In this document: in pieces, positions 493 through 43,678 of the stretch
Layout of the letters: every line of letters begins with the position of its first letter
How positions within the stretch are numbered: the first letter of the stretch is position 1
Source: Chrysomallon squamiferum
Lineage: Eukaryota > Animalia > Mollusca
Assembly (NCBI GenBank): GCA_012295275.1
Contig: CM022674.1
Coordinates: 4,898,001 to 4,962,000, forward strand
Reading direction: 5' to 3'
DNA length: 64,000 nucleotides
Notes under the pieces: model-generated
Databases searched by the model: none
Told to the model about the DNA's origin: nothing
What the model saw: only the letters and a program-made list of their open reading frames with translations
Program-made: the position numbers and the translations under genes

Positions 493-812
493 GCTGGATT
501 AGAACTGTGTTGATTCGCCAAATCCCGTACAAGATACTGTTTGGCAAAATACTCCAGACCTTCTTTCCGAGAGCTGAAGCTGTCTATGGGTTTTCCTTTG
601 ACCGACAAGTCGTCAGCAACGACGCCGTTGCAGTTGCCGCACAAACCCGTCAGCTTGCCTCTGAGGGCGCCAGGAACAAACAAGCGCACTTCCATGTTGC
701 CGTTGTAACCGACGTTGAGGCCACAGTGAGTGGTCACCTTGATGAAGTGTTTATCCTTGGTGACGTTGTATTTCGGAGTCACAAGATTAGGTTGTACCTT
801 TTTCCCGTTAAC
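493..812 (-). CDS. VWD domain exon B (VNGKKVQPNLVTPKY...GKLTGLCGNCNGVVADDL...)
   Basis: V-x-VNG junction motif and G-K-x-x-GLCGN-x-NG...DD, the VWD C-terminal signature; overlaps ORF 489..782. Confidence 0.92.
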
Positions 813-3800
813 CTAGAAAATTATTTTATTTTATCTTATTTTATTTTATTTTATTTTATTTTATTTTATTATTATTTAATAACACTATTATTATTATTAT
901 TATTATTATTATTATTATTATTATTATTATTATTATTTCTTGCTGTTGTTACTGTAACTATAGTGGTATCAGAATATGATGCTCTGAAAAGAAAACATTA
1001 CAAAGACTCAATTTTTTCCGTTCCTACCTCCACATGCTCGTATCTCATCAGACGTATTTTATCGGATCCGATTGTCACTTCGACCATTTCCGTAAACGCT
1101 CGTGTCGGGTGATGCGACTTCGGGCGTTTCTTGTTCATGACCTCAATTCGGAAGGAACAGTTACTCTGAGCATTGGCGTATTCGGACATTAAATAACGGC
1201 ATTCGTTCAACAAGGAAACGTGCGCATTGTCGAAAGTTTTATAATGAGGATCGCCTCTGGCTTCACAGAAACAGGGTCCTGTAGCTGAAATAACAAATAG
1301 TTCTCTATGCTCACTTTATATTTTAAGTCGCCATATTAGACGGAGTAGACAGAGCAAAATTAAGCTAATGTTGGATTTTCAGAAAGAGGCTATAAATTAA
1401 AAATATGATAATAAAAAAACAATTAAAAAAGACATAAATAAAAATAAATAAAGAATAATTAAGAAATAAACTTAAATTTTAAAACGTAAGTCATTTGCTT
1501 AAAGTAATTAATTGTTCTTCTACTTATGAAAACAGCCAGATAGTACGAAAATAGCGGTTGACAAAGCCGATGGACAAAGTTTATGTTTACTCTTACCAAC
1601 AGACAACAAATAACATACTTGAAGTCACTGAGAACGGAATATAGGTCAAGAGCGAACTATAGAAAACTAATTATATGCTCTAACCAAGTAGTGATGCCCT
1701 TGAACCGCTTATAAAAAAAAAAAAAAAATGTTTAATCTACTTGTACATATGCAAGTATATATAAATACCTTTTCGTTGCGGCTTGGTAATCGGAGCTTTA
1801 GCTTTAGGGCTGGTGGTGGCTTAAATAGAAAATTATTATTATTATTATTAGCAGCAGCAGCAGTTATGGTAGTAGATGTAGTAGTGGTAGTAGTAGTAGT
1901 AGTAGTAGTAGTAGTAGAAGTGGACTAGAAGTAGTATTTGCAGTAGTTAAGTAGTATGGATTCATTATTTGTTTTTATATATTCGTATCTGCATCTCTGT
2001 TTTTATTTCGTTAAAGATGTATCAACTTGCACTTTGCCATAATATTTCCCACTTGTCAACACAACATTTGTCATAGACTTGAACCACCAATTATGGTAAA
2101 AATTGTACCAAATTTTAAAATATGACACAGATTCAAAACATTAATAATAATAATAATAATAATAATAATATAATAATAATAATAATAATAATATTATTAT
2201 TATTATTATTATTATTATTATTATTATTATTATTATTTCTACTATTACTATTACTACTACTATTATTATTATTTAACTTATATATTCATTCATTCATTTA
2301 TTTATTTATTATTTGTTTTATTTATTTATGAATCATTTATTTTTATTTAGGCTTTATTAATTATGAATTTATTTATTTTTTATTTTTTATTATTATTATT
2401 TTATTATAATATTTTTTTTTTTTAACCTTGTGCTGTAGATATTGGTTTTTTACCATGACCGTGATGTCCTTCAAATATTCTGCCGTCATCCATTATCGGT
2501 GGCAATTCTACTATTGTAGGTTTAACCTGAAAATATATATACACATATACATACAAACACAATAATAATAATAATAATAATAATAATAATAATAATAATA
2601 AAATAAATAAATAAATAAAATAAAGTGAATTTGAATCTTTGAATTTGCATTTCTTTATTTTTATTTTTTTTATTATTATTATTGTGTGTGTATAGTGTAA
2701 GCATTTGTTTGTTTCTTTAGTTATTTACATATTAATTAAGTAAATTATTATTTTGTTTTCTTTTGATGGTCATTATTGTTAATTTTCTTCTTCTTCTTCT
2801 TTCTTCTTCTTCTTCTTCTTCTTCTTCTTCTTCTTCTTCTTATTATTATTATTATTATTATTATTATTATTATTATTGCTTTTTTGTTAGTAGCACAAGA
2901 ACAGAAAGGTCATAGGTTGTCAAACTTTATCATTATAGCAAACATATTTTTGTTTTCATCGCAGTTATTGTGTTTTCACTGAAAGAATTATAACACTTGC
3001 GTCCAGAAATGTCAGTATCGAATTTTATATAAATAACTGCAGCAAAAAACCCTAAACATACAAAAGCCATTAACGACCCAAATCATAATAATAATAATGA
3101 TAATAATGATTATATTGATAATGATAAAAACGATGACTAAGATGACGATGTTCTTGTTCTAATGACGATGATGGTAAAGAAAGAAAGAAAGAAAGAAAGA
3201 AAGAAATCAAACAGCGAAAAGGATCTCTGAGTGCAAGTTAACAAGAAAAAAAAAAAAAAATAGTTAAAAAGTATTCTTAAGGTTATTTTTCTTTCTTATG
3301 ATAATTAATAAGTTTACTTAAACAACACCCCAGCTCGATTCTCTATCAAACTGAAACATGAATAAATCATGCTTTATTGTATATTTCTCTTTTTATCTAA
3401 TTTACTTACCGGTTTCACTTTCTTCGCCGAATGCCTGTGTCCTGAAAATTAATATCGTTATTATTATTATTATTATTATTAGTAGTAGTAGTAGTAGTAG
3501 TAGTAGTAGTACTATTATTAGTAGTAGTAGTAGTAATAGTAGTAGTAGTAGAAGTTAATGGTAGTATAGTTCTGGTAGTAGTAGTATTACTAGAGGTTGT
3601 AGTACTTGAAGTAGTAGTAGTAGAGGTTGTAGTACTTGTAGTAGTAGTAGTAGTTTTAATAGTAGCAATAATTCTAGTAACATTAGTAGTAGCTGCAACA
3701 GCTGTGAAAGTAGTACAGCTTCTACTAGTCTTATTACTACTACTACCTCTATTACTACTAGTACTACTACTATTAATTTTACACAAGCGTTCTTTCTCTC

Positions 3801-42800: not shown

Positions 42801-43678
42801 ACTAAACAATGAAGTGTTTACTGTTTTATATCATCTTAGACTGACCTATAGTATAAATATAAGTAAAATTTGATAAAATATTTTACACTTATTTATTGAA
42901 CTGAAATTTATGGTTCCATTAAACAACGTTATAAGTATAATACTATTTATTTATTTATTTATTTAAAAATTTTAAATACTTACATCGTTTTTCTCGAATT
43001 TTTACATCGCTTTCGGAATCCTTTTCTGTAACAGTAACAACAACAGTTATTAATTATGATGATGATAATAATGTAATAATAATAATAATAATAATAATAA
43101 TAATAATAATATAATAGTAATAATAATAATATAATAATAATAATAATAATAATATAATAATAACAAAGGCTAGTAGTAATAGCATAGGAGTAGTAGCAGA
43201 AGTACTCGCAATCGTAGCAGTAGTAGTAGTAGTAGTAGATGTAGTAGTAGTAGTTGTTGTTGTTGTTGAAGTTGTAGTAGTATGAAGAGAATAGAGGTGG
43301 TAGTAGTGAGGGACGAAGGGAAGGAGAGAGAGAGAGAGAGAGAGAGAGAGAGAGAGAGAGAGAGAGAGAGAGAGAGAGAGAGAGAGAGAGAGAGCGTAAG
43401 AGAGAGGGAGAGAGTGAGTGCGCGAGAGAGAGAGTTCGTGAGAGAGAGAGTGAGTGTGTGAGAGAGAGTGCGTGAGAGAGAGAGTGAGTGCGTGAGAGAG
43501 AGAGAGTGAGTGCGAGAGAGAGTGAGTGCGTGAGAGAGAGAGAGAGAGAGAGAGAGAGAGAGAGAGAGAGAGAGAGAGAGAGAGAGAGAGAGAGAGAGAG
43601 AGAGAGAGAGTTCTTACCTGTTGAGTAGACAAGGGCCACCAGAATAACGCAAAGGAAAAGGAGTAGAACGTACTTCAT
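493..43678 (-). CDS. Large secreted protein: signal peptide + REKR propiece + ~1340-aa polybasic K/R/W/Y repeat region + Pro-rich linker + VWD domain; >=70 exons, 3' end outside window (>=1616 aa)
   Basis: Manual splicing gives one uninterrupted frame with AG/GT boundaries and matching phases. Exons 5'->3': 43678-43618, 43025-42984, 42517-42453, 41968-41899, 41321-41257, 40754-40685, 40152-40088, 39653-39570, 39122-39023, 38292-38261, 37707-37620, 36802-36771, 36366-36267, 35863-35832, 35395-35308, 34461-34430, 33973-33871, 33091-33060, 32590-32503, 32053-32022, 31577-31475, 30685-30654, 30139-30052, 29601-29570, 29138-29036, 28230-28199, 27721-27634, 27182-27151, 26719-26617, 25819-25788, 25302-25215, 24760-24729, 24286-24184, 23392-23361, 22870-22783, 22330-22299, 21868-21766, 20939-20908, 20432-20345, 19892-19861, 19427-19325, 18527-18493, 18004-17917, 17059-17028, 16543-16441, 15645-15614, 15127-15040, 14583-14552, 14093-13991, 13622-13591, 13177-13090, 12311-12280, 11866-11797, 11432-11401, 10989-10902, 10032-10001, 9610-9541, 9128-9097, 8684-8597, 7870-7839, 7448-7379, 6097-6066, 5641-5554, 4734-4703, 4310-4211, 3441-3410, 2526-2427 (alternative donor 2454), 1819-1769, 1284-1028, 812-493. 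The last exon ends in phase 2 at a GTAAG donor, so the gene continues leftward. Confidence 0.85.
1028..1284 (-). CDS. VWD domain exon A (ATGPCFCEARGDPHYKTFDNAHVSLLNECRYLMSE...RYEHVE)
   Basis: C-x-A-x-GDPHY-x-TFD followed by C-x-Y-L is the hallmark N-terminus of von Willebrand factor type D domains; phase 1 in, phase 0 out. Confidence 0.92.
6139..7014. mobile_element. Non-autonomous DNA transposon (MITE), Tc1/mariner-pogo/Tigger type, 876 bp
   Basis: TA on both sides (6137-6138, 7015-7016). Imperfect TIRs CAGTATTCCCTCGCTATTCGCGG and (reverse complement) CAGCATACCCTCACCTATTCGCGG. Subterminal CCGCGAAT repeats. No transposase ORF. Paralogous introns (after 9128, 11432, 13622) show the empty site. 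Confidence 0.88.
8297..8408. repeat. 4 x 28-bp tandem repeat containing the ATGACGTCAT palindrome
   Basis: Unit AGATGAAAGTTATATAGGATGACGTCAT; TGACGTCA starts at 8316, 8344, 8372, 8400. Confidence 0.9.
42984..43025 (-). CDS. Exon 2: acidic propiece EKDSESDVKIREKR ending in a furin/PC consensus site
   Basis: 42-nt phase 1-1 exon, ACAG acceptor and GTAAGT donor; R-E-K-R matches R-X-K/R-R and lies directly before the basic repeats. Confidence 0.8.
43324..43610. repeat. (GA)n microsatellite with interruptions, intron 1 of the polybasic-VWD gene
   Basis: Direct reading; similar (GA)n tracts at 44824-44891, 48762-49120, 62750-62845. Confidence 0.95.
43618..43678 (-). CDS. Exon 1: signal peptide MKYVLLLFLCVILVALVYST
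   Basis: GCCATG start, basic n-region, hydrophobic core, phase-1 donor G|GTAAGA followed by a (CT)n intron tract. Confidence 0.88.

What the first reader, a model, noticed from the sequence alone, without database searches (positions are those of the whole stretch)
493..43678. Hidden 70-exon gene for a giant secreted polycation (K/R/W/Y repeats) fused to a VWD domain: candidate adhesive, matrix or mucus structural protein
Seen: what looks like a 40-kb satellite is one spliced ORF. It runs signal peptide -> EKDSESDVKIREKR -> ~1340 aa of repeats -> Pro-rich linker -> VWD. The 85-aa consensus module has 41 K/R (48%), 15 W/Y (18%), no D/E and no Cys. Known: VWD domains drive multimerisation in vWF, gel-forming mucins and invertebrate adhesives. 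The flatworm adhesive protein Mlig-ap1 combines K/R-rich regions with VWD, and Lys/Tyr(DOPA) cation-pi chemistry underlies mussel adhesion. Inference: this is a lineage-specific secreted polycation that polymerises through VWD and coacervates with polyanions (glue, egg case/shell matrix, mucus). I do not recognise this W/Y-rich repeat as a described family.
Basis: partly seen in the sequence, partly recalled or inferred. Interest (0 to 1): 0.93.

Follow-up and report, generated by a model that had tools for sequence, protein, structure and literature searches.

The report
Snail polycation gene hidden in satellite
A 43-kb stretch that looks like repetitive DNA holds a gene of about 70 small exons (the last ones are spliced in RNA), likely from a snail, for a predicted secreted protein of some 1,340 strongly positive residues plus one mucus-type VWD domain, which likely binds and cross-links negatively charged mucus polymers and may also act on microbes.

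Summary
On the minus strand, 70 AG/GT exons give a stop-free 1,616-aa chain: signal peptide, REKR site, a 1,337-aa block (47% K/R, 14% W/Y, net about +620), linker, VWD. Contigs of one RNA run bridge 7 of 69 junctions, all in the 3' part; the 5' end was not checked. The VWD is not new. It falls (100/100) with the last VWD of an unstudied abalone/limpet protein built as signal, furin site, cationic block, VWD-C8-TIL-EGF, acidic block, VWD, stop; in the limpet that gene also lies near a GCNT gene. This gene lacks the middle modules and the acidic block, and its cationic block is four to five times longer. The repeats read as amphipathic helices, unlike flatworm GRK glue repeats. Furin sites are depleted except one RGRR in each of 11 modules. 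Polymerisation through VWD is not supported: no C8 or TIL and no spare Cys expected. Best reading: a mucus/matrix polycation that binds polyanions (0.45). Main rival: a precursor of antimicrobial helices (0.33). A new variant of a known kind; function untested.

The parts
43618..43678 (-). Exon 1: start codon and predicted signal peptide
   Evidence: Basic N-terminus, 14-residue hydrophobic core of mean Kyte-Doolittle 3.66, no other hydrophobic stretch in the chain; SignalP not available; not checked in RNA
42984..43025 (-). Exon 2: short acidic propeptide ending in the furin-type site REKR
   Evidence: relatives have R-x-K-R sites at the same place before their cationic block; not checked in RNA
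3410..42517 (-). Repeat array: 64 exons coding 1,337 aa of K/R/W/Y amphipathic-helix repeats (units of 34-50 aa; modules of 85 and 74 aa; genomic module 2.0-3.0 kb)
   Evidence: Exons: 42453-42517, 41899-41968, 41257-41321, 40685-40754, 40088-40152, 39570-39653 (optional), 39023-39122, 38261-38292, 37620-37707, 36771-36802, 36267-36366, 35832-35863, 35308-35395, 34430-34461, 33871-33973, 33060-33091, 32503-32590, 32022-32053, 31475-31577, 30654-30685, 30052-30139, 29570-29601, 29036-29138, 28199-28230, 27634-27721, 27151-27182, 26617-26719, 25788-25819, 25215-25302, 24729-24760, 24184-24286, 23361-23392, 22783-22870, 22299-22330, 21766-21868, 20908-20939, 20345-20432, 19861-19892, 19325-19427, 18493-18527, 17917-18004, 17028-17059, 16441-16543, 15614-15645, 15040-15127, 14552-14583, 13991-14093, 13591-13622, 13090-13177, 12280-12311, 11797-11866, 11401-11432, 10902-10989, 10001-10032, 9541-9610, 9097-9128, 8597-8684, 7839-7870, 7379-7448, 6066-6097, 5554-5641, 4703-4734, 4211-4310, 3410-3441. 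RNA contigs join A to B, B to A to B, and the last A to the linker
2427..2526 (-). Linker exon 1 (100 nt)
   Evidence: RNA contig covers 2427-2524, which fixes the 100-nt donor over a 73-nt alternative
1769..1819 (-). Linker exon 2 (51 nt, Pro/Lys/Thr-rich)
   Evidence: 51-letter gap in the same RNA contig; binned depth fits 47 + 4 bases at 1769-1819 (my arithmetic)
1028..1284 (-). VWD exon 1, with the GDPH motif
   Evidence: Pfam VWD positions 1-73, E 5.7e-11; joined to the linker and to the next exon in RNA contigs
493..812 (-). VWD exon 2; ends at a phase-2 donor, last exon not located
   Evidence: Pfam VWD positions 79-150, E 1.2e-9; RNA contig with 0 other letters and 83 further letters; terminal-VWD clade 100/100

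Best explanation
The gene encodes a predicted secreted protein, likely a component of snail mucus or another extracellular gel, whose long arm of positively charged, predicted amphipathic helices would bind and cross-link negatively charged polymers, while one terminal VWD domain likely anchors it in the gel. Shown: the exon chain, composition, VWD family placement and splicing of the 3' exons. Inferred steps: signal peptide and REKR propeptide are removed; each 34-50-aa unit folds into a helix with a narrow W/Y/L/V face and a broad K/R face once its charge is neutralised by a polyanion; the K/R face binds sulfated or carboxylated glycans or acidic proteins and the aromatic face adds cation-pi and helix-helix contacts, giving a coacervate or stiffened gel; the VWD is likely self-cut at GDPH and held by a disulfide, as in FCGBP, without forming covalent polymers. 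In abalones and a limpet the same plan carries its own acidic block; this gene lacks it, so the counter-charge must come from other molecules. Some cutting at the RGRR sites may occur and would give 74-86-aa polycations that stay in the gel.
For: Stop-free 70-exon chain, net about +635; RNA joins repeat to linker to VWD; nearest solved relatives of the VWD are the mucus proteins FCGBP and gel-forming mucins; relatives keep a cationic block attached to VWD with no strict furin site inside it in 3 abalones and one at its far end in the limpet; strict furin sites are absent from aa 35-437 (0 against 9.4 +- 2.4 when only K and R are swapped), so a long arm is kept whole; pN/pS near 1 with no stops fits selection on charge and pattern rather than exact sequence; precedents: Mlig-ap1 K/R regions plus VWD, cohesive and blocked by heparin (PMC6410801, passages); limpet pedal-gland P-vulgata_4 with VWD and basic repeats (PMC7333891, passages).
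Against: No tissue, protein or activity data. The repeats are amphipathic (moment 0.416 against 0.287 +- 0.013 in shuffles) and Gly-poor (3.3%), unlike the GRK/GRKHS repeats of flatworm glue (PMC9229212, passages). 11 RGRR sites at module starts could cut most of the arm away from the VWD. No C8, TIL or spare Cys that would build a network. In FCGBP the GDPH anhydride was found hydrolysed, not cross-linked (PMC8267560, passages).
Confidence: 0.45

Rival explanations
1. Host-defence polyprotein or mucus-tethered antimicrobial: convertases cut at RGRR to release about ten 74-86-aa cationic amphipathic peptides (possibly amidated through the Gly before RR) that bind and permeabilise microbial membranes; the VWD delivers or holds the precursor in mucus.
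For: 12 strict R-x-[K/R]-R sites against 31.4 +- 4.5 under a K/R swap; 11 of the 12 are RGRR at the start of a module, just before the helix; W/Y/V/W/L/A/L/Y at spacing 3-4-3-4-3-3-4; one exon folds as a helix, residues 6-32 of 34, pLDDT 78.5; abalone cationic blocks are also amphipathic and start right after a furin site; relatives pair the cationic block with an anionic one, as myticalin precursors do (PMC5577615, passages).
Against: The 11 sites are copies spread by tandem duplication, and one site per module is not below chance for a single module (P 0.29-0.43); the Gly sits at an exon junction, where splice letters favour it; products of 74-86 aa are much longer than myticalins (23-42 aa); the first 407 aa have no strict site; abalone relatives have none inside the block.
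Confidence: 0.33
2. Matrix protein of a tanned hard part (periostracum, operculum, scale, radula or egg case): Tyr is oxidised and cross-linked to Lys, and the polycation packs against chitin-associated acidic proteins or minerals.
For: 8.9% Tyr and 20.7% Lys; VWD proteins occur in vent-snail shell or scale proteome lists (PMC11871041 supplement rows); tyrosinases are present in those hard parts (passages).
Against: No chitin-binding or acidic mineral-binding domain; three short VWD peptides were not found in that paper's 4 text supplements, but no peptide column or GDPH hit was found either, so the test was blind; species not shown to be the same.
Confidence: 0.13
3. Gamete or spawning protein (sperm-egg adhesion, egg jelly or spermatophore glue).
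For: Relatives are automatically named zonadhesin-like; basic amphipathic sperm proteins are known in abalones (recalled).
Against: The name rests on VWD content only; no MAM domain, EGF or transmembrane segment is seen here; no gonad data.
Confidence: 0.05
4. A satellite or decaying gene whose upstream repeats are not really translated.
For: pN/pS 0.84-1.48; only 7 of 69 junctions seen in RNA, from one run; repeat-exon contigs could come from any copy.
Against: No stop in 4,850 bases; every exon length keeps the frame; 70 of 70 AG/GT ends; invariant-like W, Y, R, K, L columns; furin-site depletion in the 5' part; none of 13 genomic modules is identical to another, which argues against an assembly loop.
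Confidence: 0.04

Closest known systems
Unstudied gastropod proteins XP_046332236 (Haliotis rufescens, 'zonadhesin-like'), XP_071095571 (H. cracherodii), XP_067669298 (H. asinina, 'mucin-2-like'), KAK6172766 / SNE40_016361 (Patella caerulea)
   Same: Signal peptide, furin-type site, cationic N-terminal block, and a last VWD without C8 (45-47% identity, clade 100/100; about 30% to their first VWD). Abalone blocks are amphipathic too. In Patella the best GCNT hit lies 16 locus tags away on a contig of the same length.
   Different: They carry VWD-C8-TIL-EGF and a long acidic E/P/V block, net -25 to -46; cationic block 250-329 aa, 21-39% K/R, under 0.5% W/Y. The window gene has neither middle part, net +636, 1,337 aa, 47% K/R, 14% W/Y.
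Mlig-ap1 (Macrostomum lignano) and ap3 GRK/GRKHS proteins of other flatworms
   Same: Very long secreted K/R-rich regions; Mlig-ap1 joins them to a VWD (PMC6410801, PMC9229212, passages).
   Different: Mlig-ap1 has a C-type lectin, VWD-C8-TIL and 17 EGF core; its repeats are Gly/Arg/Lys low-complexity. Here Gly is 3.3%, W/Y 14%, with helical periodicity and one bare VWD.
FCGBP and gel-forming mucins (MUC2, MUC5AC/B, vWF)
   Same: VWD fold and, as in FCGBP, a GDPH motif.
   Different: One VWD instead of repeated VWD-C8-TIL assemblies; no PTS glyco-domain (S+T 7.4%, P 0.4%).
P-vulgata_4 (limpet pedal mucus)
   Same: VWD protein with positively charged repeats, made in pedal glands (PMC7333891, passages).
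   Different: 830 aa, only two short basic repeats, at the C-terminus; sequence not compared here.
Linear cationic molluscan antimicrobial peptides (myticalins, molluscidins)
   Same: High pI, basic residues, signal peptide and convertase site (myticalins); dibasic repeats (molluscidins) (PMC5577615, passages).
   Different: Short single peptides of 23-42 aa with an anionic tail (myticalins) or without signal peptide (molluscidins); no VWD; no tandem precursor.

Membership tests
Gastropod cationic-VWD-acidic-VWD proteins (Haliotis, Patella; unnamed) | Last VWD of the terminal, C8-less type | tested here: met
   45-47% identity, clade 100/100
Gastropod cationic-VWD-acidic-VWD proteins (Haliotis, Patella; unnamed) | Signal peptide, furin-type site, then cationic block | tested here: met
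Gastropod cationic-VWD-acidic-VWD proteins (Haliotis, Patella; unnamed) | Internal VWD-C8-TIL-EGF and acidic block | tested here: not met
   RNA contig joins last repeat exon, linker and terminal VWD directly; charge profile has no acidic part
Gastropod cationic-VWD-acidic-VWD proteins (Haliotis, Patella; unnamed) | Position next to a GCNT gene | tested here: inconclusive
Gel-forming mucin / FCGBP / vWF | VWD domain | tested here: met
   Pfam, PDB
Gel-forming mucin / FCGBP / vWF | Repeated VWD-C8-TIL assemblies | tested here: not met
   One VWD in 1,616 aa; relatives of this VWD end within 3-14 residues; the last exon lies beyond what was laid, so a tail is not strictly excluded
Gel-forming mucin / FCGBP / vWF | PTS-rich O-glycosylated domain (mucins) | tested here: not met
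   S+T 7.4%, P 0.4% in the repeat block
Gel-forming mucin / FCGBP / vWF | GDPH self-cleavage | not testable with these tools
   Motif present; cleavage needs protein
Mlig-ap1-type flatworm cohesive protein | Long K/R-rich regions joined to VWD | tested here: met
Mlig-ap1-type flatworm cohesive protein | C-type lectin, C8, TIL, EGF-array core and GRK-type repeats | tested here: not met
   No such core between signal peptide and VWD; Gly 3.3%
Mlig-ap1-type flatworm cohesive protein | Adhesive-gland expression and loss of adhesion on knock-down | not testable with these tools
   No tissue data
Myticalin-type linear cationic AMP precursor | Signal peptide, cationic region, convertase site | tested here: met
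Myticalin-type linear cationic AMP precursor | Mature peptide 23-42 aa followed by an anionic extension | tested here: not met
   Predicted pieces 74-86 aa, no anionic tail
Myticalin-type linear cationic AMP precursor | Antimicrobial activity | not testable with these tools
   Needs peptide assays

The most novel reading that the evidence does not exclude
A mucus VWD gene turned into an antimicrobial polyprotein: exon-pair duplication multiplied one cationic Trp-rich helix about thirty times, the built-in acidic counter-block was lost, and one RGRR site per module lets the animal release about ten amidated 10-11 kDa polycations while a long arm stays tethered to the VWD. It would be a new precursor design linking mucus gels and microbe control in gastropods, with the abalone and limpet proteins as its charge-balanced ancestral form.
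Probability: 0.3. Interest if true: 0.8.

Novelty: new variant of a known kind. Interest (0 to 1): 0.56.

Why it matters
It is an extreme secreted polycation (net about +635) that routine pipelines would miss: the gene looks like a microsatellite-rich satellite, exons are 32-103 nt, and trypsin would shred the protein (the same problem was reported for Mlig-ap1, PMC6410801, passage). It exposes an unstudied gastropod family with charge-segregated blocks and shows how one member changed by domain loss and exon-pair duplication. The 85-aa module is small enough to make, so the glue-or-defence question can be tested directly.

Tried and rejected
No whole genome is held, so the last exon and paralogues were not searched. 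Word-seeded search with VWD exon 2 alone among longer proteins: 0 of 54 candidates; the profile search scored only 7,982 candidates of 390-2,000 aa, so a closer full-length relative is not excluded. Pfam on 3 repeat exons: no family. Metagenome scans: 0 of 111 stretches for the window exon; 2 weak loci of 176 for a relatives' alignment, not used. Runs X5 (no exon cover) and X7 (intron cover, DNA-like) add nothing on splicing; X2 has an unspliced exon-intron contig. No complex prediction was sent: the whole VWD is split over two exons. The AlphaFold model of an unnamed relative's terminal VWD was weak (pLDDT 62) and only confirms the fold class. Module identity values mix paralogous hits and are rough. 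Earlier scan notes: nothing by place, sequence or words. Covalent cross-linking through the GDPH anhydride was considered and given low weight (PMC8267560). The frog glue protein PRIT lost its VWD and is only a loose parallel (PMC11237159, passages).
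Full report
Observation. The window is 28% G+C and dense in microsatellites. On the minus strand, motif searches for acceptors and donors gave a regular chain of small exons. The final model has 70 exons, 70 of 70 with AG/GT ends, 4,850 bases over 43,186, and reads as 1,616 aa without a stop. 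Exon 1 codes a predicted signal peptide, exon 2 a short acidic piece ending in REKR. Then A exons (28 of 32 nt, 3 of 65, 1 of 35) alternate with B exons (14 of 88, 9 of 103, 5 of 70, 3 of 100); every A+B pair is a multiple of three, so pairs can be gained, lost or skipped in frame. One 84-nt exon is frame-neutral and optional. Both last exons hit Pfam VWD.

Is it coding? In 51 repeat exons of three size classes, 57 distinct single-base variants gave 13 synonymous, 44 non-synonymous and 0 stops, against 5.7 stops expected (P about 0.004); pN/pS was 0.84-1.48, so exact residues are not held. B exons are more alike than the introns behind them (0.90-0.96 against 0.77-0.80), but the pooled A exons are not (0.74 against 0.83; two types were pooled). 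None of 13 genomic modules is identical to another.

RNA. Seven runs were listed, four on record as RNA, from one study. Four runs were laid on 400-5700 only. In run X1, contig coordinates show VWD exon 1 joined to exon 2 with 83 further letters; 36 letters, then 2427-2524, a 51-letter gap, then 1128-1284; 5551-5616, a 32-letter gap, then 4238-4307; and a loose end at 5641 that matches an A-type exon within one letter. Binned depth places the gaps on exons 3410-3441, 1769-1819 and 4703-4734 (my arithmetic). That is 7 of 69 junctions, read from table 8 and not from the joints table, in 1 of 4 runs. X2 has an unspliced exon-intron contig, X5 no exon cover, X7 intron cover. Repeat contigs could come from other copies. 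The 5' 37 kb was not checked.

Host. The divergent neighbour at 49.2-52.6 kb is a core-2/I-branching GlcNAc transferase; its closest single-domain named hit is from Gigantopelta at 60%, most others are molluscs at about 50%. With the VWD result this points to a gastropod; the species is not established.

Relatives. A full HMMER scan with VWD exon 2 found 362 proteins; most are multi-VWD proteins matched over the first 70 residues, but a few match to the end. A profile of these ranked three abalone proteins and one limpet protein first among 47 hits from 7,982 scored candidates. All four read: signal peptide, propeptide with furin sites, cationic block, VWD-C8-TIL(-EGF), long acidic E/P/V block, a last VWD without C8, stop. 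The window's VWD is 45-47% identical to the last VWD and about 30% to the first; a 29-row tree puts it with the terminal domains at 100/100. Relatives end 3-14 residues beyond the point where the window's exon stops and add one conserved Cys to the 7 seen here, giving an even number. A fragment from Batillaria shows this VWD type in a third gastropod lineage. In Patella the best GCNT hit is SNE40_016345 and the VWD gene SNE40_016361, on contigs of equal length, which suggests the same locus. So the gene is likely a derived member: middle modules and acidic block absent, cationic block four to five times longer and rich in W/Y, net charge +636 against -25 to -46.

The repeat. Aligned on the conserved Trp, 31 units show W0 (30 of 31), Y3 (28), V/L7 (27), W10 (28), L/I14 (28), A17 (27), L20 (29), Y24 (23), with R/K between. 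The helical hydrophobic moment is 0.416 against 0.287 +- 0.013 in shuffles; abalone blocks are also amphipathic, the limpet block is not. One 34-aa exon folds as a helix (single sequence, weak evidence). Strict R-x-[K/R]-R sites number 12 against 31.4 +- 4.5 when only K and R are swapped, and 0 against 9.4 in aa 35-437; 11 of 12 are RGRR at a module start. The depletion fits a protein that passes furin in the secretory route. The kept sites are duplicated copies and are not below chance per module, so they may be incidental; cutting there would give a 407-aa arm, ten pieces of 74-86 aa and a 334-aa VWD piece.

Mechanism. Best reading (0.45): a mucus or matrix polycation whose helices bind polyanions and cross-link a gel, anchored by an FCGBP-like VWD. 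The PDB search ranks FCGBP first, and the GDPH motif is present; in FCGBP such motifs are self-cut, held by a disulfide and stabilise the domain, without cross-linking (PMC8267560 passages; PMC10880436 abstract and section 2.4). Covalent VWD polymers are not supported. Rival (0.33): antimicrobial polyprotein or tethered antimicrobial. Others: tanned hard-part matrix (0.13), gamete protein (0.05), non-functional (0.04). The first two are not exclusive.

Comparison and novelty. It works like Mlig-ap1 in pairing K/R regions with VWD (PMC6410801, passages) but fails its domain and repeat features; it is not a gel-forming mucin or a myticalin by their defining features. I found no paper on this repeat or on the four relatives in ten full-text searches (accession search 0 hits). 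Those searches cover open PMC and bioRxiv only; subscription papers and unseen supplements on abalone or limpet mucus and shell proteomes may list the relatives. Other papers in those searches were seen as listings only; PMC11871041 as passages and supplement rows. Verdict: real, striking, a new variant of VWD-bearing secreted proteins with untested function; interest 0.56.

Noticed in passing
window 48200-52620 (+): Core-2/I-branching beta-1,6-GlcNAc transferase gene (Pfam Branch on exons 49218-49772 and 50622-50924), head to head with the polycation gene; a mucin-glycan enzyme beside a likely mucus protein, also near it in Patella.
   Followed up: partly
window 56690-63420 (-): A multi-exon gene; the exon at 57523-57648 looks like CCDC84/CENATAC (recalled; Pfam gave no match).
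   Followed up: partly
window 6138-7015: An insertion of about 880 bp in a repeat intron with imperfect inverted ends flanked by TA, like a Tc1/mariner-derived element (seen; the ungapped repeat finder did not list the ends).
   Followed up: partly
window 50860-51600 (+): Several decayed tandem copies of the end of a GCNT exon and its donor in the following intron.
   Followed up: no
P0135, P0274, P0275, P0276: Abalone and limpet proteins with a strongly basic N-terminal block and a strongly acidic second half around VWD domains; the abalone block begins right after a furin site with an amphipathic stretch that looks like an antimicrobial helix (resemblance recalled). No paper found by accession.
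   Followed up: partly
window 39570-39653 (-): An 84-nt exon that looks like a B exon fused by deletion to the end of an A exon; frame-neutral, so possibly skipped.
   Followed up: no
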